This document shows, piece by piece, positions 41,243 to 60,609 of a DNA stretch of 64,000 nt. Each line of letters begins with the position of its first letter. Position 1 is the first letter of the stretch. The notes beneath the pieces were generated by a model. It ran no database searches, was not told the DNA's origin, and saw only the letters and a list, made by a program, of their open reading frames with translations. The DNA is from a virus (Duplodnaviria; Caudoviricetes). Where the stretch lies: IMG/VR virus record IMGVR_UViG_2651870089_000025, positions 43,521 through 107,520 of that record. One strand, given 5' to 3'. Made by a program: the position numbers and the translations under genes.

Positions 41243-41250
41243 TATAAATA
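41243..41250 (+). promoter_or_regulatory. Perfect T4 late promoter TATAAATA (leaderless terminase mRNA)
   Basis: Exact consensus; 5 nt to the ATG at 41256. Confidence 0.75.
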
Positions 41251-41255
41251 CTTGT

Positions 41256-42851
41256 ATGCCAGGTACCGACAGTCAATTAGTCAAATCTGCTCATAAAAAA
41301 ACCAAATATACCAAAGAGCAAACAGAGCATTTACAAAAATGTTTAGACCCAGAGACGGGTCCTTTGCATTTTATGCGTAATTTTGTGTATATACAACATC
41401 CTGTAAAAGGACGGTTACAATTTGAGCCGTATAATTTTCAATTGGAGTTGATAGAAAACTATCATAATTATCGCTTTTCTATTAATATGTGTGCTCGGCA
41501 AATGGGTAAAACTACTGTTGCCGCTGGATATTTGTTATGGTATGCAATGTTTAAACCAGACAGCACAATAATGATTGCCGCACACAAGTACCAAGGCGCC
41601 GCAGAAATTATGCAACGTGTTCGTTATGCATATGAAAGTGTGCCGGATTTTGTAAGAGCAGGTGTAGTTAATTATAATAGAAACAGTATTGACTTTGATA
41701 ATGGATCTCGTATTATAGCGGCTACTACAACAGAAACTACTGGACGTGGTATGTCCTTGTCACTAATTTACATGGACGAGTTTGCGTTCGTACAACCGCG
41801 TGTAGCGAAAGAATTCTGGACAGCACTATCTCCTACACTTGCTACAGGTGGTAAATGTATTATTACGTCGACGCCTAATAGCGATGACGACCAATTTGCT
41901 ACAATTTGGCGAGAAGCAAATGCTACGCATGATGAGTTTGGTGAAGATCAGAAGTTAGGTAAAAACGGATTTTCAGCAGTAAAAGTAGTATGGAGTGAAC
42001 ATCCAGACAGAGATGAGAAATGGGCAAAGGAAGAACGATCTCGAGTTGGCGAGGAGCGTTTTAGACGCGAGCACTTATGCGAATTTATTATATATGATGA
42101 AACACTTATTGACGCATTAAAGTTAGTAGGACTTACAGGACGGGAGCCTATTTTAAGAACCGGTGAGGTAAGATGGTATCATAAACCAAAGAAAGGTGGT
42201 ATCTACTTGGTAGGACTCGATCCAAGTTTAGGAACAGGCGGTGACTACGCGGCAATACAAGTATTTGATGGTATAACAATGCAACAGGTTGCTGAATGGC
42301 AACACAATAAGTCTCCTGTAAAACGCCAAATAAAAATAATGCAAGAAATACTTGAGCATATTGCAAAAGAAACCGGTTATAAAGAAACAGCACATACCGA
42401 AACAGAGATTTACTGGAGTGTCGAAAACAATACTTTGGGCGAAGCATGTTTAACTGTTATAGAACACACAGGCGAGGAGAACTTTGCTGGAATGATGGTG
42501 AATCAGCCTAAAACCGGAAGCGGGCAAAGACGTTATCGTAAAGGGTTTACAACAACTGCTAAAACTAAACTGTCAGTTTGTGCTACATTAAAAAATCTTG
42601 TTGAAGGCGGTAAAATGGAAGTTAACAGTAAGCGGCTAGTTAGAGAGTTAAAAAACTATGTTGCTAACGGCTTAAAGTTTGAGGCAAAAGTAGGCGAAAC
42701 AGACGATTTAATATCTGCAACTTTATTAGTTTTAAGAGTAAGCAATCATTTAGCAAAGTATGATGATAGAATCCACGATAGATTAGCACAAAATACTGAT
42801 GATGACGACGAATTTGGTTTTTCAGACCCAATGCCATTGGGCATAATTTAA
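41256..42851 (+). CDS. gp17: Terminase large subunit
   Basis: ARQMGKTT Walker A, IYMDEFAF Walker B, ITSTPN, GLDPSLGTGGDY, DDLI. Confidence 0.95.
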   Translation: MPGTDSQLVKSAHKKTKYTKEQTEHLQKCLDPETGPLHFMRNFVYIQHPVKGRLQFEPYNFQLELIENYHNYRFSINMCARQMGKTTVAAGYLLWYAMFKPDSTIMIAAHKYQGAAEIMQRVRYAYESVPDFVRAGVVNYNRNSIDFDNGSRIIAATTTETTGRGMSLSLIYMDEFAFVQPRVAKEFWTALSPTLATGGKCIITSTPNSDDDQFATIWREANATHDEFGEDQKLGKNGFSAVKVVWSEHPDRDEKWAKEERSRVGEERFRREHLCEFIIYDETLIDALKLVGLTGREPILRTGEVRWYHKPKKGGIYLVGLDPSLGTGGDYAAIQVFDGITMQQVAEWQHNKSPVKRQIKIMQEILEHIAKETGYKETAHTETEIYWSVENNTLGEACLTVIEHTGEENFAGMMVNQPKTGSGQRRYRKGFTTTAKTKLSVCATLKNLVEGGKMEVNSKRLVRELKNYVANGLKFEAKVGETDDLISATLLVLRVSNHLAKYDDRIHDRLAQNTDDDDEFGFSDPMPLGII

Positions 42852-46716: not shown

Positions 46717-47700
46717 ATGGCTACATTGGCAGAACTAAGAGCAAAACTCGCGGCACAGGAACAGCAATCGTCTGGACCACGCGAAACAGACAACGCAATT
46801 TATGCGTTCTGGAATATCCCTAACGATACTACAGCAACAATTCGATTCCTTCCAGACGGAGATCAAAGCAATACCTTTTTCTGGGTAGAGCGTCAAATGA
46901 TCCGTATCCCGTTTCCGGGTGTGAAAGGGCAGGACGAAGCAAAGGCTGTAACGGTTAATGTACCGTGTGTTGAAATGTGGGGAGAAACTTGTCCAATTCA
47001 CGCAGAAATTCGTCCGTGGTTTAAAGACCCGGCTCTAGAAGATATCGGACGCAAATATTGGAAAAAGCGTTCTTACATCTTTCAAGGATTTGTCGTAAAT
47101 AATCCACTTGATTCTGATGCAACGTCAGATAACCCTATTAGACGTTTTGTTATTAATCCGTCTATATTCAAGATCATCAAAGCGGCATTAATGGACCCGG
47201 AAATGGATAATCTACCAACTGATTATGAGAATGGTACAGATTTCCGTTTAACTAAAACACAAAAAGGTCAATATGCTGATTATTCCACTTCAAACTGGGC
47301 ACGACGTGAACGAGGCTTAACCGAAGAGGAGATGAGCGCAGTTGAAACACACGGGTTGTTCACATTAAGTGATTATCTTCCAAAGAGGCCATCGGCTGAC
47401 GAAGTTAAAGTAATCTACGATATGTTTCAAGCATCTGTAGATGGCGAGTTGTATGACTTGGAGAAATGGGGAGACTATTATCGTCCATACGGTATTGGTG
47501 CACCATCCAACTCTGGAACAGCACAACCTGTTAACAACGACAACAAGGAAAACACAACGACTACTGCTGAGTCAAGTGTTACACCTGCTAAGGAAACTGT
47601 TGCGGAAGAAGATAGTGAAGAAGGATCCAGCAATAAAAGTGCTGATGAAATCTTAGCAATGATTCGCAGTCGCAAAAAGACCGAAACAGCGTCGGCTTAA
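46717..47700 (+). CDS. gp32: Single-stranded DNA-binding protein
   Basis: TIRFLPDGD, CPI, KYWKKRSY, GTDFRLTK..YADYSTS; acidic tail. Confidence 0.9.
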   Translation: MATLAELRAKLAAQEQQSSGPRETDNAIYAFWNIPNDTTATIRFLPDGDQSNTFFWVERQMIRIPFPGVKGQDEAKAVTVNVPCVEMWGETCPIHAEIRPWFKDPALEDIGRKYWKKRSYIFQGFVVNNPLDSDATSDNPIRRFVINPSIFKIIKAALMDPEMDNLPTDYENGTDFRLTKTQKGQYADYSTSNWARRERGLTEEEMSAVETHGLFTLSDYLPKRPSADEVKVIYDMFQASVDGELYDLEKWGDYYRPYGIGAPSNSGTAQPVNNDNKENTTTTAESSVTPAKETVAEEDSEEGSSNKSADEILAMIRSRKKTETASA

Positions 47701-47749: not shown

Positions 47750-48859
47750 ATGGTAAAACCTTATGATTTTTCTAAATTAAGAAAAAGTTTAACAAAGAAT
47801 ATTGATGGCTTGAGTTTAGGATTCAATGATCCTAAAGACTGGATCGATACTGGCAGTTATGCATTGAACTATCTTATCAGCGGTGACTTTTATAAAGGCG
47901 TGCCGTTAGGTAAAGTAACAATGTTTGCTGGCGAATCCGGCTCTGGTAAAAGTTTAATTGTAAGTGGTAACTTGGCTCGTAATGCACAAAAAGCAGGATG
48001 CTTTGTGGTTATGATGGACAGCGAAAATGCATTAGATACAGAATGGCTAGAAGCACTTGGTGTAGATATAAGTGAAGATAAACTTTTAAAAATTAACGTA
48101 TCAATGATCGATAGCGTAGCAAAAACCCTATCAGAGTTGCTTAAAGGATACCGCGAAGAAAATGAGGGCAACGAATATGAAGATTGCCCAAAAGTAGTAA
48201 TTATTATCGATAGTTTAGGTATGTTGCTATCTCCTACAGACATTCAACAGTTTGAGAAAGGAGATCTAAAGGGTGACTTGGGTCGAAAGCCTAAAGCACT
48301 TACAGCATTAATTCGCAATACAGTTAATACTATTGCACCATACCCAATTGGATTCATAGTTACAAACCACACGTATGCATCGCAAGATATGTTTGATCCG
48401 GATGACAAAATCTCAGGTGGACAGGGTTTTGTATATGCAAGTTCAATTGTAGTTGCAATGCGTAAACTAAAACTTAAAACTGATGCAGATGGAAACAAAG
48501 TTACAGATGTACTTGGTATCAGGGCGGCGTGTAAAGTAATGAAAAGTCGCTTTTCAAAACCGTTTGAATCAGTACAAGTGGAGATTCCATATGAAACTGG
48601 AATGAGCCCATTTAGTGGTTTAGTTGACATGTTTGAAAAATCTGGTATTCTTGTTAAGCAAGGTAACAAGTTAAAATATGTTGATAAAACAGGAAACGAG
48701 CACAGTTACTTTAGAAAAGGATGGAATGCGGATACAATTCCAATTATCTTACAGGAACAACGCGAAGGTTTGATTTTAGAGCCTGTTATAGACGATGAAC
48801 ATAGTTATAATGAAGAGGATTTTGAAGAACCGGTCTTGGAAGAAATTGAGGAAGAATAG
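47750..48859 (+). CDS. uvsX: RecA-like recombinase
   Basis: AGESGSGKS, DSENALD, IIDSLG, TNHTY, ISGGQG. Confidence 0.95.
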   Translation: MVKPYDFSKLRKSLTKNIDGLSLGFNDPKDWIDTGSYALNYLISGDFYKGVPLGKVTMFAGESGSGKSLIVSGNLARNAQKAGCFVVMMDSENALDTEWLEALGVDISEDKLLKINVSMIDSVAKTLSELLKGYREENEGNEYEDCPKVVIIIDSLGMLLSPTDIQQFEKGDLKGDLGRKPKALTALIRNTVNTIAPYPIGFIVTNHTYASQDMFDPDDKISGGQGFVYASSIVVAMRKLKLKTDADGNKVTDVLGIRAACKVMKSRFSKPFESVQVEIPYETGMSPFSGLVDMFEKSGILVKQGNKLKYVDKTGNEHSYFRKGWNADTIPIILQEQREGLILEPVIDDEHSYNEEDFEEPVLEEIEEE

Positions 48860-48889: not shown

Positions 48890-49123
48890 ATGGATATTAG
48901 TCCCGAAGTATTTGTAGAAATGTGGAATGTACTAAAACCGTACATCCCACAAAAAGAAAGATTTGATGCCGCTTATAGTATGATAGATTTTTATGATACA
49001 AATGGTGACATTGAAGAATTAAGAGAAAGCGATATTTTGGATTCCTATCTTGCTAAAGCGTTAAATGAATACCTAGACGAAGAATTAGATGACGATGACG
49101 AAGATGAGGATGACGACTATTAA
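48890..49123 (+). CDS. Small acidic hypothetical protein
   Basis: GGAG SD; lies between uvsX and uvsY. Confidence 0.6.
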   Translation: MDISPEVFVEMWNVLKPYIPQKERFDAAYSMIDFYDTNGDIEELRESDILDSYLAKALNEYLDEELDDDDEDEDDDY

Positions 49124-49608
49124 TGGCTAGTTGGTATCAACGTGTAGTTGAAGATATAACTGTCCTTCCAGATTGCATAGACTATTTTGAAGGACAGTTA
49201 GCCGAAGCACGAAACGAAGTTAGATTTAACGGAAGTATTGAAAAAGCCTCAAGTGCTATTCCGGCTATTGTGCAAACAAGGTTTTCCGAGTTGCAAGAAA
49301 TTGAAGCAATTTTGGAGCATTTAAATATACATTTACGAAAGTTGCGAGCACAAACTTTTAGAATGTATTTAGAAAAATACAACAGGCAGTTAAGTTCGCG
49401 CGATGCAACGGCATTTGTTGACGGCGAACAAGTAGTTGTAGATCAATCAGAACTTATTAATGAATTTGGTTTATTACGCAACCAGTTTCTTGGGGTGTTG
49501 AAAGCACTAGAAGCAAAGCAGTTTCAAATCAACAACATTGTAAAATTACGTGTGGCCGGCCTCGAAGATTCTGAAATCAATATGTTTTACGGTAATCCTA
49601 ATAAGTAG
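49123..49608 (+). CDS. uvsY: Recombination mediator
   Basis: Helical; C-terminal KQFQINNIVKLRVAG; downstream of uvsX. Confidence 0.75.
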   Translation: MASWYQRVVEDITVLPDCIDYFEGQLAEARNEVRFNGSIEKASSAIPAIVQTRFSELQEIEAILEHLNIHLRKLRAQTFRMYLEKYNRQLSSRDATAFVDGEQVVVDQSELINEFGLLRNQFLGVLKALEAKQFQINNIVKLRVAGLEDSEINMFYGNPNK

Positions 49609-49628
49609 TAATAGATGTAGATAATTTG

Positions 49629-49658
49629 TTGACAAGCAAGTTGTCTATAGTGTATAAT
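49629..49658 (+). promoter_or_regulatory. sigma70-type promoter
   Basis: TTGACA-18-TATAAT. Confidence 0.65.
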
Positions 49659-49691
49659 AGTTACATTAATTTATTGTAAAGGAGAATTGTA

Positions 49692-50093
49692 ATGAGTATT
49701 AATCTACGTAAAGCCGCCACTTTACAAGAGCAAATTCGTCAAACTATCAGTGACATAAATCTTGACAGCGTACCAAACGGCGAGTTACCAGATCGTTTAA
49801 ATCGTGTAGAAGAACTTGAGTCAGTACTTTTTAGTTTGCGAGATAAAGTAGGCAAAGCAAATGTTGAATCTGGTGTTAGTACTTTGTTAACTAAGAGAGT
49901 TCAACTTAACACACTTATTAGCAGATACGAAAAATTAGTTCGCAATGGACACGAAGAATATAAATCCAAGTTATCTGACTTCCGTCGCGAGAGAGTAACA
50001 ATAAGTGAACAAATTTTAGAGTTGAATGTTAGTTCTATGGTTAATTTAACAGAAACAGACATGAATGTGCTTGCTAAAGAAGAGATAGTATAA
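49692..50093 (+). CDS. Coiled-coil hypothetical protein
   Basis: 133 aa; AAGGAG SD; heptad-like pattern. Confidence 0.7.
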   Translation: MSINLRKAATLQEQIRQTISDINLDSVPNGELPDRLNRVEELESVLFSLRDKVGKANVESGVSTLLTKRVQLNTLISRYEKLVRNGHEEYKSKLSDFRRERVTISEQILELNVSSMVNLTETDMNVLAKEEIV

Positions 50094-50101
50094 ATACAGT
50101 C

Positions 50102-50242
50102 GTAACCGGGTGTTGTAGGGTAAACAAGCGAAGACGAAAACAATACTTGCTAATATTGTTCTAGAGATAAAGATAAGATAAGATAAGGTATACCTGGTTA
50201 TTTGCTGGAAGGGCGTCAGAAATGGCGCCTTTCTTTTTTTTT
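50102..50242 (+). ncRNA. Putative ~140-nt structured late ncRNA with GAUAA repeats
   Basis: TATAAATA at 50089-50096; 11-bp closing stem 50103-50113/50190-50200; inner stem 50139-50145/50154-50160; terminator at 50208-50242; no plausible ORF. Confidence 0.6.
50208..50242 (+). terminator. Rho-independent terminator
   Basis: GAAGGGCGTCA-GAAA-TGGCGCCTTTC followed by a T run. Confidence 0.85.
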
Positions 50243-50284
50243 GTTTATAATTGACAAATGCGGTTTATCTGTTATTATAATAGT

Positions 50285-50491
50285 ATGAATAAAATAGAAA
50301 AAATGGTCAAAGAATGCGTAGACGCCATAGGCGACATTGCTATGAAGAATGACATAAATATTATTGATGAGGATTTTGTTAAAGACATAGCACTTTCGTC
50401 AAAGTTTTTAAACGCAGCCTTTGATCGACAATTTTGTCAAGAAAACGTTTTACACGAGCATATGTCTAAATTAACAAATTCTCTATCTTAA
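50285..50491 (+). CDS. Hypothetical protein (leaderless, early)
   Basis: TTGACA (50251)-16-TATTAT (50273-50278); ATG 6 nt downstream. Confidence 0.55.
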   Translation: MNKIEKMVKECVDAIGDIAMKNDINIIDEDFVKDIALSSKFLNAAFDRQFCQENVLHEHMSKLTNSLS

Positions 50492-50509
50492 CGATAGGGG
50501 CGTTCGTAA

Positions 50510-50839
50510 GTGAGATACAAGTTATATCTAGATAATGCTGGTCTTCCGGTGCATATCGGGTCAGGATTTAAAGGCACCGCTGGCTGGACAATAAAACAGG
50601 ATTATGATGATGTAATTGATCATATAGAGAAACATGGTTGTCCTGTGTTTATCAGTTTTGGTAATCAAATAAGTGGTGGTTTAGGTAAAACAATGTACGA
50701 TTTAGCCAACTGGCTTATTGCACAAGATCTAAAAGGACAGTTTTTTCCCGATGATTTTGATTTTACTGTACACTCAGACAACCCTATGGATGTTGCAAAT
50801 ATTTCTAATCTATTGAACGCTTATTTAAGGTCTCGCTAG
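50510..50839 (+). CDS. Cyclic-phosphate-processing receiver (cREC)-like domain protein, degenerate
   Basis: KLYLDN, ISFGN, TVHSDNP resemble the LFLDD, ISFDHDLG and VHSxNP motifs. Confidence 0.6.
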   Translation: MRYKLYLDNAGLPVHIGSGFKGTAGWTIKQDYDDVIDHIEKHGCPVFISFGNQISGGLGKTMYDLANWLIAQDLKGQFFPDDFDFTVHSDNPMDVANISNLLNAYLRSR

Positions 50840-51823
50840 GCCTCGATTAATTAACTCTTTAATCTTGCCCATTTGCAATACATCGTGTATAGTCATAGTT
50901 GACGAATTCCACCATGGGTCTAAGTCTAGTTCTATAATTATTTTTATTGTAGTTTCGTGTGCATATTGTAGTTCGGCTTTTTTTGCCTTGGTAAACTTAA
51001 AGTTTGGTTCTATGTTGTAAATGTCGCTTACATTTTGATCTATGATTAATTTATCCATATCGATTAATTTTTCGTTGCTATCGAGATCAAACAAAAGATT
51101 TTCGGTGTAATCTTCGATAAAGTAATTAATATATTGTTTAAGTTCTATACCTGTGATTAGGTGTTTATTGTGCTTTGTCTTAACTTTTTCAAAGTGAGTA
51201 ATATATTTGTATAACCCTAACACCATTGGCAACCATGTTCTGTTTTTACTAAATCTAGCGTATACTTTGTTTTGAAATTTTAGATCTATTGGTGTCTTTG
51301 TATTTTGTGTAGGCAATCGATATGGGTAGTGATGAAACTTTAAATATTTAAAAGACGATAATAATATATTATCAGGAATTTGCAATGGCCGTGACAATGG
51401 AATTGTTATAATCTCGTTAAGTTTTTTAGTTTCGTTTATGTTATTTAAAACAAACTCCTCGTTATTAAAATACTTTTCCCAGGAGATACTAGGCAAGTTG
51501 AAAGTGTACTTTAATAGTAAAATAGTTCTAATGTATATTTTAAGTATAGTTTCTTCTGATTCGTTTGTATAATGTTTTTTAATTTTTTTGTAAATAGGAG
51601 TTTCTTGATAGCCAGCAGTACCAAATATACATTCAACAACATCATTTGAAAGCCACTCGTAGTTAGTCTTTAATGGATTGGTACTTTTTGCAGACACATT
51701 GATTAAATTAGGATTTTCTGTTTTGTGATGATCCTCAAGCAAAAAATGCATTAAAAAATGTCCCATAGATCCCGGAGGATAAATGAGAGGAGTAAAATGG
51801 TTAAAAAATGTTTCGCCGAGCAT
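50825..51823 (-). CDS. Hypothetical protein
   Basis: 332 aa; YPPGSMGHFL N-terminal motif; TATAAATA at 51828-51835 (minus), 4 nt upstream of the ATG. Confidence 0.6.
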   Translation of the reverse strand: MLGETFFNHFTPLIYPPGSMGHFLMHFLLEDHHKTENPNLINVSAKSTNPLKTNYEWLSNDVVECIFGTAGYQETPIYKKIKKHYTNESEETILKIYIRTILLLKYTFNLPSISWEKYFNNEEFVLNNINETKKLNEIITIPLSRPLQIPDNILLSSFKYLKFHHYPYRLPTQNTKTPIDLKFQNKVYARFSKNRTWLPMVLGLYKYITHFEKVKTKHNKHLITGIELKQYINYFIEDYTENLLFDLDSNEKLIDMDKLIIDQNVSDIYNIEPNFKFTKAKKAELQYAHETTIKIIIELDLDPWWNSSTMTIHDVLQMGKIKELINRGLARP

Positions 51824-51937
51824 CAGTTATTTATAGCACGTTTCAATGCTGGATGTTGTATAGATAAGAACTATTCTTATTTAAAAACCTATAAAAACAA
51901 GCGGTTTTTTGTTGTAAAAATCCCACACTTTTTAAGA

Positions 51938-58237: not shown

Positions 58238-59227
58238 GTGCTTATTGATAAATTAAAGTCGTTAATTCTGTCGCGTCTGTCTGGCCAGAAAGCAAATCCA
58301 AGTGGATGGATGACATTAAACTGCCCAATGTGTATTAGCATGGGAGAAACAAGACCAGATACACGCAAGCGAGGCGGGTTTAACTTTTCTAAACCAACTG
58401 CAATCTCCTATCATTGCTTTAACTGTGGATATACAACAGGATGGTGGGTAGGAAGTGTATTGGGACTCAAGTTTATTAATTTATTAACAGGGCTTAATGT
58501 TGAAGATAGTACTATTAATAAACTAAAGATTGAAAGTTTAAAAGAAAAAGACCAAGACGTAGAGTTTGAACCGGTTAGGAAAATTAATTTAGATTGGAAG
58601 GGTGTTGAGTTACCAAAGAACGCAAAGCCAATATCCGGCGATGTAGACAAGGATGTGCTGGCATACCTACAATCTCGAGGAAAAGGAATTTACGAAAACT
58701 GGGATTACTATTGGTCACCTGAAACATATATGGAACTAAACAAGCGTATTATTATACCTTGTTATTTTAAAGACAAAGTAGTTGGATGGGTTTCGAGACA
58801 TATTAAGCCTGGAAAAGAAACAACGCCAAAGTACTATGTTGATATTCAGCGTGATTATTTGTTTAACATAAATCAGTTATATACAAAAGACAGGAAGTAT
58901 GTTATACTTGTAGAAGGACCGTTTGATGCAATAGGCATAGATGGAGTCGGATTGTTAGGTTCAAATATTACAGAAACACAAGCAGATTTCTTAAACAGTT
59001 TTGGTAAAAAAGTTGTATTAGTACCTGATAGAGATAAAGCAGGAAAAAAACTTATACCAACAGCAATACAGCATGGCTGGTCTATTAGTTTCCCCGAATG
59101 GGATAAAGGCGTCAAGGATGTAGCCGATGCTGTAAAGAAGTATGGCAGACTGTTTACATTGAGAAGTATAATAGATGCAATCGAAGATAATCCAATAAAA
59201 ATAAATGTGTTAAAGAGACAGATATAA
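58238..59227 (+). CDS. gp61: DNA primase (T4 gp61-like)
   Basis: Zn motif CPMC..HCFNC; TOPRIM VEGPFDA, PDRDKAG, KDVAD. Confidence 0.9.
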   Translation: MLIDKLKSLILSRLSGQKANPSGWMTLNCPMCISMGETRPDTRKRGGFNFSKPTAISYHCFNCGYTTGWWVGSVLGLKFINLLTGLNVEDSTINKLKIESLKEKDQDVEFEPVRKINLDWKGVELPKNAKPISGDVDKDVLAYLQSRGKGIYENWDYYWSPETYMELNKRIIIPCYFKDKVVGWVSRHIKPGKETTPKYYVDIQRDYLFNINQLYTKDRKYVILVEGPFDAIGIDGVGLLGSNITETQADFLNSFGKKVVLVPDRDKAGKKLIPTAIQHGWSISFPEWDKGVKDVADAVKKYGRLFTLRSIIDAIEDNPIKINVLKRQI

Positions 59228-60609
59228 TGCCCAAAGAGTTTACTGAAGATTTACAAAAGTTGTTTTTAGGCTTTTTAATAAGCGATAAAGATTTGTATGT
59301 TCGTGTACAAAGTTTAGTAGTACCAACTTATTTCAACAACAAATTTCGCCCTGCAGTTGCATTAATTAATGAGCACAGTGAAAAATATAGTAGTTTGCCT
59401 ACAGTTGAGCAAATTAAAGCAAAAACTGGTATAGAAGTTGAATTAGATACCAACATAACAGCAAGGCACAAGGAATGGTTCTTAGATGAGTTTCAAGATT
59501 TTGTAAAGTTTAAAGCATTAGAACAAGCAATATTAGCAAGTGCTGATGATATTGAGCGCGGTGAGTATTATTCAGTTGAGAAAAGAGTTAAGGAAGCAAG
59601 CGAAGTTGGATTAACAAAAAGTTTAGGCACAGATTATTTTGAGGATCCGCTTAAAAGATTACAAATATTAAAAGACAACAACGGTCAAATAAGCACAGGC
59701 TGGACAGCAATTGATAAAAAGTTGTTTGGTGGATTCAACAAAGGCGAACTTAATATCTTTGCTGGTGGTAGCGGAACAGGTAAAAGTTTGTTTTTACAAA
59801 ATCTTGCATTGAACTGGGCATTGATTGGTGTTAATGTAATATACTTTACGTTAGAACTTAGTGAGGAGTTGGTTGCCATGAGAATTGACAGCATGGCAAC
59901 TGGTATGAGCAGTAAAAGTCTCTTTAAAAACTTAGAAGATGTTGAGTTAAAGATAAAAATGCTTGCCAAGCAAGCAGGAGCAGTACAAATAGCATACTTG
60001 CCAAGTGGTGTAACTGCGGCACAACTCAAGTCGTACTTGAAAGAATATGAAATTCAAAGCGGATTACAACCGCAGGCTATTATTGTTGACTATCTCGACT
60101 TAATGATGCCTAATGACAAGCGGGTTAGTCCTAGTGATTTGTTTGTTAAAGACAAGTATGTTGCTGAGGAGTTGCGTAACTTAGCAGTAGAGTTAGATAC
60201 ATTGCTAGTAACAGCATCGCAGTTAAACAGAACAGCAGTAGAAGAGATAGAATTTGACCATAGCCATATTGCTGGCGGTTTAAGTAAGGTACAAACAGCA
60301 GATAATGTGCTGGGTATTTTTACAAGTGCACCAATGCGTGAACGAGGTAGATATCAAATACAGTTTATGAAAACTAGAAGCAGTAGCGGTGTAGGACAAA
60401 GAGTTGATTTGCAGTTTGATATCGATAGTTTAAAGATCAGCGATTTACCTGAAGGAGAAGAGGAACAGCCATCAGAAGTGTTGTATAGTAATGTTGTTAG
60501 AAAAAGTTCAGTAACTGATGACAGAGAAAACGAAAATGGAAAAACTACTGAGGCTAAAGCAACTAATTTGCGTAAAATGATCGCAAATATGAACAAGTTG
60601 GATCGTTAA
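59227..60609 (+). CDS. gp41: Replicative DnaB-like helicase (T4 gp41-like)
   Basis: GGSGTGKS, TLELSE, IVDYLDL, TASQLNR, MKTR. Confidence 0.92.
   Translation: MPKEFTEDLQKLFLGFLISDKDLYVRVQSLVVPTYFNNKFRPAVALINEHSEKYSSLPTVEQIKAKTGIEVELDTNITARHKEWFLDEFQDFVKFKALEQAILASADDIERGEYYSVEKRVKEASEVGLTKSLGTDYFEDPLKRLQILKDNNGQISTGWTAIDKKLFGGFNKGELNIFAGGSGTGKSLFLQNLALNWALIGVNVIYFTLELSEELVAMRIDSMATGMSSKSLFKNLEDVELKIKMLAKQAGAVQIAYLPSGVTAAQLKSYLKEYEIQSGLQPQAIIVDYLDLMMPNDKRVSPSDLFVKDKYVAEELRNLAVELDTLLVTASQLNRTAVEEIEFDHSHIAGGLSKVQTADNVLGIFTSAPMRERGRYQIQFMKTRSSSGVGQRVDLQFDIDSLKISDLPEGEEEQPSEVLYSNVVRKSSVTDDRENENGKTTEAKATNLRKMIANMNKLDR

What the first reader, a model, noticed from the sequence alone, without database searches (positions are those of the whole stretch)
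49629..50242. Candidate protein + structured small RNA module: early coiled-coil gene followed by a late ~140-nt ncRNA with GAUAA repeats
Seen: a perfect TATAAATA (50089-96) overlaps the stop codon of the 133-aa coiled-coil gene, predicting +1 at ~50102. The RNA begins immediately with TAACCGGGTGT, which pairs (11 bp, two G-U) with ATACCTGGTTA (50190-200). It encloses an inner AACAATA/TATTGTT stem and a purine-rich single-stranded tract of four GATAA repeats (50166-50186), and ends in a strong terminator. It has no coding capacity. The protein gene has its own sigma70 promoter, so the RNA would exist early as a 3' UTR and late as a free species. Inference: an undescribed RNA-protein system, for example a sponge or decoy for an RNA-binding protein (A-rich repeats resemble Hfq distal-face sites), an RNA antitoxin or antitoxin mimic, or a scaffold bound by the coiled-coil oligomer.
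Basis: partly seen in the sequence, partly recalled or inferred. Interest (0 to 1): 0.8.

Follow-up and report, generated by a model that had tools for sequence, protein, structure and literature searches.

The report
Conserved phage RNA beside helical-protein gene
A folded RNA of about 140 bases, matching no catalogued RNA family, sits directly behind a conserved gene of unknown function in giant aquatic phages; the two are always inherited together, so they probably work as a pair, but what they do is unknown.

Summary
At 50102-50242 lies a non-coding unit. It has a TATAAATA box, a 12-bp closing stem (50102-13 with 50190-201), an A/purine-rich loop of about 75 nt with an invariant motif ATACTTGCTAAnATTGT, and a strong terminator.

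Thirty further distinct versions from aquatic metagenomes keep this layout. In 21 distinct type-A sequences, 9 of 11 counted stem pairs show compensatory changes and 95.7% of cells pair, against 32-40% in slid controls. G-U occurs but never A-C, so the + strand RNA folds. No Rfam family matches.

The RNA always follows the same 133-aa helical gene in a gp32-UvsX-UvsY block of an uncultured jumbo T4-like phage (record about 29% complete). Genes further downstream vary. Remote homologues of 185-195 aa (hhalign 99.9%) in other jumbo phages are followed by a different, roughly 300-nt structured RNA.

The inner stem and the GATAA repeats are lineage-specific (4 copies here, 3 in near-identical strains, none elsewhere). 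The Hfq-sponge reading therefore has no comparative support, and the antitoxin reading was tested and not met.

Best reading: a new gene-linked phage RNA, made early as a 3' UTR and probably late on its own, most likely the RNA partner of the upstream protein. No transcript ends could be mapped. The function is inferred, not shown.

The parts
49629..49658 (+). sigma70-type promoter of the 133-aa gene (TTGACA-18-TATAAT)
   Evidence: 12 of 12 consensus matches. A TTGACA / TATAAT pair is kept in all 20 leaders printed, the window and 19 homologous loci.
49672..49691 (+). mRNA leader TATTGTAAAGGAGAATTGTA, nearly invariant in type-A phages: Shine-Dalgarno flanked by two ATTGTA words, a possible operator
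   Evidence: Of the 14 type-A leaders printed, 11 are identical over these 20 bases; L015 has one change and L020/L094 differ at 3-4 bases. The promoter spacer varies more. Type B keeps cATTGTAA before AAGGAG. The role as an operator is inference.
49692..50093 (+). Gene for a 133-aa helical protein of unknown function; short form of a jumbo-phage family mostly 185-195 aa long
   Evidence: 114 homologues at 65-100% identity. AF2 model pLDDT 93.4. Best solved fold is 3kdq_A, Z 11.5, function unknown. Atlas neighbours are DUF6847-like. 385 remote homologues. hhalign 99.9% to the long family. No Pfam or PHROG match; only a marginal PADLOC match.
50089..50096 (+). TATAAATA, T4-type late-promoter box; predicted +1 near 50101-50103
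   Evidence: Perfect in 24 of 31 distinct homologous loci, 2-5 nt before the first helix. The same box lies 5 nt before the ATG of the large-terminase gene at 41256. No transcript start has been mapped.
50102..50242 (+). The RNA unit as a whole, about 135-141 nt, from predicted start to the end of the terminator U run
   Evidence: Fold z = -3.35. Covariance model R1 scores 103 bits here, finds one copy per related locus and none elsewhere in the window. No Rfam match.
50102..50113 (+). P1, 5' strand of the closing stem
   Evidence: Pairs with 50190-50201. 9 of 11 counted pairs show changes on both sides across 21 distinct sequences; 95.7% of cells pair against 32-40% when the partner is slid.
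50143..50159 (+). Most conserved motif, ATACTTGCTAATATTGT, in the large loop
   Evidence: Columns invariant or nearly so in alignment A3. An exact search of IMG/VR for the motif gave RNA-like hits only behind the 133-aa gene.
50166..50186 (+). Purine tract, here four GATAA units (lineage-specific, copy number varies)
   Evidence: 3 units in L001 and L030, whose proteins are 99-100% identical. Other lineages have non-periodic A/G tracts at this place.
50190..50201 (+). P1, 3' strand of the closing stem
   Evidence: See the P1 5' strand. G-U pairs are present and A-C never occurs, so the + strand is the one that folds.
50207..50242 (+). Intrinsic terminator (12-bp stem, loop of 4, U run)
   Evidence: The stem covaries across the homologues.
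50251..50281 (+). Next sigma70-type promoter, for the 68-aa gene and the cREC_REC gene. It marks the end of the unit.
   Evidence: 11 of 12 matches. Kept in type-A loci. Type-B loci show no obvious TTGACA-type promoter at this place.

Best explanation
This is a gene-linked small RNA of a family that matches nothing in Rfam. It belongs to uncultured aquatic jumbo T4-like phages.

Shown:
- A unit of about 140 nt has a 5' end that pairs with a 3' segment in a covarying 12-bp stem.
- The stem closes a loop of about 75 nt, A/purine-rich and mostly unstructured, that displays an invariant CUUGCUAA...AUUGU motif.
- An intrinsic terminator follows within 6 nt.
- The unit is present once per genome, always directly behind the same conserved 133-aa helical-protein gene, in the block gp32-like SSB, UvsX, a 73-81-aa gene, UvsY-like, this gene, RNA.
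- Genes further downstream change between lineages.

Inferred:
- The RNA is made early as the 3' UTR of the protein's sigma70-driven mRNA.
- It is made again late as a free, end-protected RNA from its own TATAAATA promoter.
- Its most likely job is to be the RNA partner of the protein encoded just upstream, either as a ribonucleoprotein or as a titrating ligand.
- The near-invariant UAUUGUAAAGGAG leader of the protein's own mRNA would act as a look-alike site for feedback, in the manner of ribosomal-protein and T4 gp32 autoregulation.

My odds: a real, conserved RNA structure 0.9. A separate late transcript 0.6. Partnership with the protein 0.35-0.4. The confidence figure given for this explanation is for the whole statement, mechanism included.
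For: Structure:
- One search used a MAFFT alignment that was not fitted to the structure. 95.7% of cells pair, 9 of 11 pairs have compensatory changes, and slid controls give 32-40%.
- Searches show G-U but no A-C.

Homology of the variants: model R1, built from type A, finds the type-B RNAs at full length with E 0.002-0.03.

Linkage:
- All 28 IMG/VR loci and all loci from 10 protein look-ups carry the RNA behind the gene.
- A DNA-only search for the RNA motif returned RNA-like hits only next to the gene.
- Upstream synteny is constant and downstream synteny varies.

Deep linkage:
- Homologues of 185-195 aa in other jumbo phages are followed by gaps of 260-390 nt.
- A DNA-only search for the 5' hairpin of that long RNA gave 5 distinct lineages, each with the homologue directly upstream.
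- The long RNA has a closing helix of about 25 bp with compensatory changes.

Promoter:
- TATAAATA is perfect in 24 of 31 loci at a fixed distance from the first helix.
- Where the stop codon does not supply the box, a second perfect copy follows.
- The same box precedes the terminase gene.

Leader: near-invariant, with 11 of 14 type-A leaders identical.

Transcription: an RNA-library contig runs from the gene into the RNA, 49774-50182.
Against: - No transcript end is mapped. All RNA runs were available only as contigs.
- No test of RNA-protein binding was possible.
- The protein is near neutral in charge (by my count from its sequence) and has no recognised RNA-binding fold.
- The long-form RNAs show no evident promoter of their own. 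The ancestral state may therefore be a plain 3' UTR element acting in cis.
- Likeness between the leader and the RNA rests on short AT-rich words. ATTGTAA is not enriched in the genome: 14 and 28 found against 20 and 18 expected. A 9-10-nt identity is seen only in one clade.
- Three of 31 loci lack a recognisable TATAAATA.
- Model R1 does not detect the long-form RNAs, so homology between the short and long RNA is not shown.
Confidence: 0.4

Rival explanations
1. Cis-acting 3' UTR element of the 133-aa gene. The stem, loop and terminator stabilise the mRNA, set its 3' end, or carry a site that controls its decay or translation. The RNA has no life of its own.
For: - The only constant neighbour is the upstream gene.
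- The long-form RNAs start right after the stop codon with no promoter box.
- An RNA-library contig joins the gene and the RNA.
Against: - A dedicated TATAAATA is kept, and even duplicated, just before the first helix in 24 of 31 loci, with the stem starting at the predicted +1.
- An invariant 17-nt loop motif is more than a stabiliser needs.
Confidence: 0.25
2. Trans-acting base-pairing small RNA. The conserved loop motif is a seed that pairs with a phage or host mRNA. One candidate is the DnaB/gp41-like helicase mRNA at 59530-59546.
For: - The motif has a perfect 14-nt complement inside the + strand helicase gene. It is the best non-self duplex in the 107.5-kb record.
- The L009 lineage keeps 14 of 14 through a change on both partners.
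Against: - The duplex energy is not an outlier: -23.9 against -23.4, -23.1 and -22.1 kcal/mol for unrelated sites.
- The match is 13 of 14 in the L004 lineage.
- The match is lost in the L015/L017 lineage, where the helicase codon changed but the RNA did not (-8.3 kcal/mol, ranked 196th of 223 sites).
- It is also lost in type B.
- About 71% of the genome and the host are unknown, so other targets cannot be judged.
Confidence: 0.15
3. Leader that controls read-through of the terminator: a nut/put-like antitermination signal, or a protein- or ligand-dependent attenuator. It would let late transcription run into the downstream genes.
For: - The layout promoter, small gene, RNA element, terminator, further genes resembles lambda PR-cro-nutR-tR1 (from my own knowledge).
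- The P1 stem ends 5-6 nt before the terminator.
- Type-B loci show no promoter between the terminator and the next gene.
Against: - Downstream genes are not conserved.
- There are no conserved inner helices as in an aptamer.
- The gamma-proteobacterial boxA consensus GYTCTTTAANA (PMC5725501) is absent from the RNA even with two mismatches.
- Type-A loci have their own promoter after the terminator.
Confidence: 0.1
4. One reading: an Hfq sponge acting through the A-rich GATAA repeats, or an RNA antitoxin (or antitoxin mimic) for the upstream protein.
For: - A purine-rich tract is kept at this place in all lineages.
- A U-tailed terminator is present.
Against: - The GATAA periodicity is confined to one lineage and varies in copy number.
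- A 5-nt period does not fit the triplet A-R-N pattern (from my own knowledge).
- There are no ToxI-like tandem repeats.
- The RNA lies behind the gene, not before it.
- The protein has only a marginal defence-family match, LmuB at E 0.0058.
Confidence: 0.05

Closest known systems
Orphan gene-associated structured RNA motifs found by comparative genomics (Weinberg/Breaker-type candidates; PMC2864571)
   Same: - Defined by covarying helices and conserved loop nucleotides.
- Fixed genomic association.
- Drawn largely from aquatic metagenomes and phages.
- Function unknown at discovery.
   Different: - No Rfam 15 family matches, at E up to 10 on the window and up to 0.1 on the related long-form loci.
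- The association is with the upstream gene, not the downstream one.
- The unit has its own late promoter box.
Autoregulated RNA-binding proteins whose mRNA mimics their main RNA ligand (ribosomal proteins; T4 gp32, gp43 and RegA; PMC3014915)
   Same: - A strongly conserved mRNA leader around the Shine-Dalgarno site.
- Related short words (AUUGUA) occur in the leader and in the RNA.
- The RegA SELEX site aaAAUUGUUAUGUAA resembles CUAAAAUUGUAUUAA of some lineages.
   Different: - No binding has been shown.
- The protein has no known RNA-binding fold.
- No RegA family gene (PF01818) was found in the 107.5 kb held (that search also found nothing in its 14 control genomes, so it shows nothing either way).
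- The words are short and AT-rich.
Ro60 with Y RNA (YrlA)
   Same: - An RNA whose 5' and 3' ends form a long stem closing a large loop.
- Encoded next to its protein.
- Found in phages beside RNA-repair genes. A cREC_REC gene lies at 50510-50839, and a weak YrlA hit with a DUF2828 gene lies near a homologue in L115.
   Different: - No match to the YrlA or Y_RNA models on the RNA itself.
- The protein is a small helical bundle, not a TROVE ring.
- There is no tRNA-like module.
Lambda nutR / HK022 put antitermination RNAs
   Same: Position between a small early gene and a terminator, on the same transcript.
   Different: - No boxA.
- No N-like partner was identified.
- The terminator here is a strong intrinsic one.
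- Downstream genes are not conserved.
T4 stable RNAs rnaC and rnaD (species 1 and 2)
   Same: - Phage-encoded stable RNAs of 120-140 nt and unknown function in a T4-type phage.
- Homologues of the protein in other jumbo phages lie beside tRNA arrays, as rnaC and rnaD do.
   Different: - Model R1 finds nothing at rnaC or rnaD.
- rnaC carries a tRNA-like T arm.
- No tRNA genes are in this window.
Type III toxin-antitoxin RNAs (ToxI/ToxN)
   Same: A small RNA and a protein gene separated only by short signals, in a phage-host conflict setting.
   Different: - ToxI is a tandem array before the toxin gene, whereas this is a single-copy RNA behind the gene.
- The protein has only a marginal PADLOC match and is all-helical.

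Membership tests
Any Rfam 15 family | Match to a curated covariance model | tested here: not met
   Permissive E-value scan of 49000-51000. The best match was the L20 leader at 21.9 bits against a gathering score of 58.7, and it covered only the terminator. Related loci gave no hit on the downstream RNAs.
Independent sRNA gene (promoter, structured body, intrinsic terminator) | Own promoter at a fixed distance from the RNA body | tested here: met
   TATAAATA is perfect in 24 of 31 distinct loci, 2-5 nt before the first helix. The same box lies 5 nt before the large-terminase ATG. This is sequence evidence only.
Independent sRNA gene (promoter, structured body, intrinsic terminator) | Discrete transcript with mapped 5' and 3' ends | not testable with these tools
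   All 18 runs offered are kept as contigs, which cannot show ends.
Structured RNA (conserved secondary structure) | Helices supported by compensatory changes beyond controls | tested here: met
   For P1, 9 of 11 pairs have changes on both sides and 95.7% of cells pair against 32-40% when slid; 0 of 500 shuffles reach the covariation score. The terminator stem also covaries. No conserved inner helix was found.
Hfq-dependent sRNA or Hfq sponge | Conserved (A-R-N)n or comparable repeat tract | tested here: not met
   The GATAA repeats occur in one lineage only, with 4 or 3 copies. Other lineages have non-periodic purine tracts.
Hfq-dependent sRNA or Hfq sponge | Binding to Hfq | not testable with these tools
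Type III toxin-antitoxin (ToxIN-like) | Tandem repeats of about 34-36 nt before an endoribonuclease toxin gene | tested here: not met
   The RNA is a single copy behind the gene. The protein has no significant PADLOC match (best: LmuB, E 0.0058) and is all-helical.
Riboswitch or attenuator | Conserved multi-helix core and a conserved regulated downstream gene | tested here: not met
   There are no conserved inner helices. Downstream genes differ between lineages. Only the adjacency of P1 to the terminator fits.
nut-type antitermination site | boxA (GYTCTTTAANA in gamma-proteobacteria, PMC5725501) | tested here: not met
   No + strand match with up to 2 mismatches inside 50097-50242. The host's own boxA is unknown, so a divergent boxA is not excluded.
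T4 RegA operator | A RegA (PF01818) protein in the phage, and an A/U-rich unstructured site at a start codon | tested here: inconclusive
   No PF01818 match in the 107.5-kb record, which is about 29% of the genome; the same search found nothing in its 14 control genomes. The resemblance to the SELEX site is short.
T4 rnaC / rnaD | Sequence and structure likeness to the T4 stable RNAs | tested here: not met
   Model R1, with filters off, has no match at rnaC or rnaD of NC_000866.
Pfam DUF6847 (for the protein) | Match to the PF20935 profile | tested here: not met
   No match in hmmscan at E up to 1, nor in a six-frame search of the record at E up to 10. Only language-model and predicted-structure neighbours carry it, and in just 13-19% of members.
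Jumbo-phage 185-195-aa helical protein family (unnamed) | Profile-level homology over the full length | tested here: met
   hmmsearch found 385 proteins at E up to 1e-3. hhalign gives probability 99.9% and E 3.9e-36 over residues 1-133. The window's protein lacks two insertions.

The most novel reading that the evidence does not exclude
The window holds the short form of a widespread ribonucleoprotein of jumbo phages that has not been recognised before. It would consist of a helical protein family (133 to about 195 aa, DUF6847-like fold) and a dedicated structured RNA encoded directly behind it. The RNA is about 140 nt here and about 300 nt, with a 25-bp closing helix and repeated UUGCACUUUG words, in other lineages, possibly including the 284-nt gap behind the CcrColossus gp272 homologue. 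The long-form members sit beside tRNA arrays, a GOLLD RNA, a Y-RNA-like hit and RNA-repair genes. The pair could therefore act in RNA-level conflict with the host, as a decoy, sponge or guard for some RNA-targeting or translation factor.
Probability: 0.3. Interest if true: 0.8.

Novelty: new member of a known kind. Interest (0 to 1): 0.55.

Why it matters
Phage-encoded regulatory or structural RNAs are few, and almost none are known from jumbo or T4-type phages outside the tRNA region.

This one has clear comparative support. It has a defined promoter box and terminator, and a fixed protein partner gene that is itself of unknown function yet very conserved (65-100% identity across more than 100 clusters). 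If the pair is a ribonucleoprotein, it gives a handle on a protein family present in hundreds of uncultured jumbo phages and in Caulobacter phages that can be grown.

It is also a clean case for testing whether T4-type late promoters drive non-coding RNAs.

Tried and rejected
- Rfam: nothing real.
- BLASTN and TBLASTN of the region and the protein against 50,697 phage records: no match.
- Helicase mRNA as target: attractive in the window (14 of 14) but not conserved and not an energetic outlier. Kept only as a weak rival.
- A search for the helicase region in the L008 record found nothing, so that lineage could not be scored.
- boxA: absent.
- RegA gene: not found in the partial record, and the search found nothing in its control genomes.
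- T4 rnaC and rnaD: unrelated by model R1.
- Conserved inner helices or a pseudoknot: none found by RNAalifold. The small hairpins I saw by eye are invariant or lineage-specific.
- A promoter hidden in the motif (TTGCTA as a -35 box, or a MotA-box likeness): the spacing to a -10 box is inconsistent between lineages, so I dropped it. This rests on my reading.
- TRAP-like NAG triplets in the GATAA tract: present in this lineage only, so dropped.
- Mini-ORF ATGAAAGG... across the terminator: absent in the window, L015 and L020, so not coding.
- Protein annotation: Pfam, PHROGs, PADLOC and PDB by sequence gave nothing significant. Foldseek against PDB had no hit at E up to 0.001.
- Metatranscriptome contigs: four runs laid. 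No contig covers 50183-50328. Contigs cannot show ends or levels, so nothing follows from that gap.
- Alignment A4 was too diverse for a locus scan. The P0160 scan found nothing.
- Model R1 does not reach the long-form RNAs. UUGY enrichment is strong there but not significant in the window RNA, p = 0.08.
- Complex prediction was not used. My report claims no protein-protein contact.
Full report
**1. What is in the window**

- A perfect sigma70-type promoter, TTGACA-18-TATAAT, lies at 49629-49658.
- It drives a 133-codon ORF at 49692-50093.
- The stop codon is embedded in TATAAATA at 50089-50096.
- From 50102 the sequence GTAACCGGGTGT pairs with ATACCTGGTTAT at 50190-50201. That makes 12 pairs, three of them G-U.
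- A 12-bp terminator hairpin and a U run follow at 50207-50242.
- Another sigma70-type promoter follows at 50251-50278.
- As single-stranded RNA, the 141 nt fold with z = -3.35 against dinucleotide shuffles.
- No Rfam family matches, even at E up to 10.

**2. Setting**

The window is part of a 107.5-kb virus record that CheckV rates about 29% complete, which implies a jumbo phage.

The genes just upstream are these:

- a gp32-like single-strand-binding protein at 46717-47700;
- UvsX at 47750-48859;
- a 77-aa gene;
- a UvsY-like mediator at 49123-49608.

The UvsX is closest to those of Atu_ph07, Phosso, XaC1 and Rak2-like jumbo phages. The only other intergenic + strand TATAAATA in the window lies 5 nt before the ATG of the large-terminase gene at 41256. 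This supports reading the box as a late promoter in this phage.

**3. Relatives**

The 133-aa protein has 114 cluster-level homologues at 65-100% identity, all from marine, estuarine or freshwater metagenomes. I fetched loci from IMG/VR, JGI and assembly look-ups. They gave 31 distinct versions of the region behind the gene, counting the window's own.

Every one has the same plan. After the stop codon come a late-type box, a closing stem, an A/purine-rich interior, the 3' strand of the stem, a short linker and a terminator.

- Type A (22 sequences, 21 distinct) carries the motif ATACTTGCTAAnATTGT, or a close variant of it, in the interior.
- Type B adds a covarying 5' hairpin and has GTATGATTGTTAATTGT instead.
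- A covariance model built from type A alone finds the type-B RNAs at full length with E 0.002-0.03. It finds one copy per locus and no second copy in the window.

**4. Is the structure real?**

I counted pairs on a plain MAFFT alignment of the 22 type-A sequences, 21 of them distinct.

- The closing stem pairs in 95.7% of cells, against 32-40% when the partner strand is slid by 1-3 columns.
- Nine of 11 pairs show changes on both sides.
- None of 500 shuffles reaches the observed covariation score.
- G-U pairs are common and A-C never occurs, so the + strand, as RNA, is what folds.
- The terminator stem covaries too.
- RNAalifold finds no conserved helix inside the loop.

The GATAA repeats are likewise local. 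Strains whose protein is 99-100% identical have three units instead of four, and other lineages have irregular purine tracts.

**5. Linkage to the gene**

- Upstream synteny is constant: UvsX, a 73-81-aa gene, the UvsY-like gene, then the 133-aa gene.
- The genes after the RNA differ. Most type-A loci have a 61-71-aa gene plus a cREC_REC gene. Type-B loci have a PHO4-like gene, a class II tRNA-synthetase-like gene and a CCA-adding-enzyme-like gene.
- An exact search of IMG/VR for the 17-nt motif gave 51 hits. Every hit with the RNA's layout lay behind the gene, and the rest were coding-sequence coincidences.

**6. The late box**

A perfect TATAAATA lies 2-5 nt before the first helix in 24 of 31 distinct loci. 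Four more have AATAAATA and three have none. Where the stop-codon context gives only TATAAATT, a second, perfect box follows three bases later. In L104 a duplicated segment keeps the perfect copy next to the RNA. This looks like selection on the box itself, not a by-product of the stop codon.

**7. Expression**

Sixteen RNA-library runs hold part of the stretch. In the four I laid, contigs cover the gene and run into the RNA as far as 50134 or 50182. One of them, 49774-50182, bridges the predicted start. That fits the 3' UTR form. Contigs cannot show ends or levels, so the free late RNA is not demonstrated.

**8. The protein**

- AlphaFold2 gives a confident helical bundle with short terminal strands, pLDDT 93.4.
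- The only solved structure that stands out is 3kdq_A, of unknown function: Z 11.5, 117 residues aligned.
- Atlas neighbours are phage proteins of 146-191 aa, some labelled DUF6847. The Pfam profile itself does not match.
- A profile search of 1.8 billion representatives found 385 remote homologues, mostly 185-195 aa.
- hhalign confirms homology over the whole length, probability 99.9%.
- Cultured carriers are Caulobacter phages CcrColossus (gp272) and CcrPW.

**9. The long-form loci**

The homologue is again followed by an unusually long non-coding stretch:

- 264 nt in L119;
- 266 nt in L115;
- 284 nt in CcrColossus, which folds with z = -4.97;
- about 300-390 nt in L130-L137.

One lineage, L128, has no gap.

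A DNA-only pattern for the 5' hairpin of this long RNA returned five distinct RNA lineages. Each has the homologue directly upstream on the same strand. RNAalifold on six sequences gives three features:

- a closing helix of about 25 bp with many compensatory changes;
- an inner helix CCAGUU/AACUGG whose loop ends in UUGCACUUUGCUA;
- a terminal U run.

UUGY words are enriched on this strand, with p from 1e-3 to 1e-10. The window's CUUGCUAA resembles CUUUGCUAAC of the long forms. However, model R1 does not detect the long forms, and UUGY enrichment in the window RNA is not significant (p = 0.08). Homology of the two RNAs is therefore possible but not shown. What is shown is that two distant branches of the protein family each carry a structured RNA directly behind the gene.

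Around the long-form genes, Rfam finds tRNA arrays, a GOLLD RNA in L130 and a weak YrlA-like hit beside a DUF2828 gene in L115.

**10. Mechanism**

The anatomy suits a stable RNA that presents a single-stranded motif. The 5' end is buried in a stem, a terminator hairpin protects the 3' end, and a large open loop holds an invariant 17-nt word.

Co-inheritance with one protein gene holds across deep divergence while all other neighbours change. That points either to a partnership with the protein or to a cis role for that gene's mRNA. The dedicated late box favours a role beyond the mRNA.

The mRNA leader TATTGTAAAGGAGAATTGTA is nearly invariant: 11 of the 14 type-A leaders printed are identical. 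Related AUUGUA words recur in the RNA. One clade shares 9-10 nt with the leader. This suggests feedback by mimicry, as in ribosomal-protein and T4 gp32 or RegA control (PMC3014915). It is inference from short AT-rich words, and ATTGTAA is not enriched genome-wide.

I put the partner model at 0.35-0.4, a purely cis 3' UTR role at 0.25, a base-pairing sRNA at 0.15 and terminator control at 0.1.

**11. Rivals tested**

- Helicase target: The motif has a perfect 14-nt complement in the DnaB/gp41-like helicase gene at 59530-59546, and the L009 lineage keeps it by a change on both sides. The duplex is no energetic outlier. It has one mismatch in the L004 lineage and is lost in the L015/L017 lineage and in type B.
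- boxA: absent.
- RegA: none in the part of the genome held, though that search also found nothing in its control genomes.
- T4 rnaC and rnaD: unrelated.
- Defence families: only a marginal PADLOC match for the protein, LmuB at E 0.0058.

**12. Verdict**

The emphasis on the GATAA repeats, Hfq and antitoxins is not.

The element is a well-supported new RNA family of unknown function, and the protein family it accompanies is also uncharacterised. I found no description of either in Rfam or in the papers I searched. The scan had noted this same stretch once before from an overlapping window (e1-5928722), and not on other DNA.

Noticed in passing
window 41243-41258; 51823-51835 (- strand); 50273-50287: Promoter boxes sit almost on start codons. 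TATAAATA lies 5 nt before the large-terminase ATG at 41256 and 4 nt before the ATG of the 332-aa gene on the - strand. A TATAAT-like -10 box lies 3 nt before the ATG at 50285, and likewise in related loci. This suggests leaderless or nearly leaderless mRNAs in this phage group.
   Followed up: partly
window 50510-50839: A 109-aa protein matches PF20274 cREC_REC (cyclic-phosphate processing receiver domain, E 3e-10). This domain has been proposed to clear 2',3'-cyclic RNA ends in jumbo-phage RNA repair (PMC7824862). It follows the RNA unit in most type-A loci.
   Followed up: partly
window 59530-59546 (helicase gene 59227-60609): A perfect 14-nt complement to the RNA's conserved motif lies inside the DnaB/gp41-like helicase coding sequence. 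It is kept in one other lineage by a change on both sides, imperfect in a third and lost in others.
   Followed up: yes
window 50166-50186 compared with L001 and L030: The GATAA unit number differs (4 against 3) between strains whose neighbouring protein is 99-100% identical. RNA-library contigs in two runs end inside this tract at 50182. This looks like slippage polymorphism.
   Followed up: partly
L139:10127-10402(-), L140:969-1271, L142:535-828, L144:3103-3383, L146:756-1035(-), L132:1767-2020: A second structured RNA of about 250-300 nt lies behind the 185-195-aa homologues. It has a 5' hairpin GGTGGTT.../...AATCACC, a covarying closing helix of about 25 bp (purine strand with pyrimidine strand), repeated UUGCACUUUG words and a terminal U run. 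It has no Rfam match.
   Followed up: partly
L130:155-617; L121, L127, L129 and L134 (many places); L115:5314-5431: Homologues of the protein in other jumbo-phage contigs lie inside RNA-gene islands. There is a GOLLD RNA (184.6 bits, above the gathering score) and arrays of up to ten tRNA genes. A YrlA-like hit (36 bits, below the gathering score) lies next to a DUF2828 gene.
   Followed up: no
L118:4095-4378 (Caulobacter phage CcrColossus, behind gp272): A 284-nt gap in an otherwise tightly packed region folds with z = -4.97. It has a closing stem of about 12 bp (5' strand GGTGGAAGCGG) and holds CTCTTTGCTAACC plus UUGU-rich tracts. This is a cultured system in which the protein-RNA pair could be tested.
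   Followed up: partly
L087:6580-6680 and L091 (after the terminator): Two tandem copies of a unit of about 45 nt, each with a GCCAGACTCCTGGC hairpin, lie between the RNA's terminator and the next gene. They are absent from sister loci L088 and L090.
   Followed up: no
genome C1:37983-53702 (window up to about 10182): My simple ORF caller finds a single open frame of 5,239 codons that runs into the start of the window. I did not examine it.
   Followed up: no
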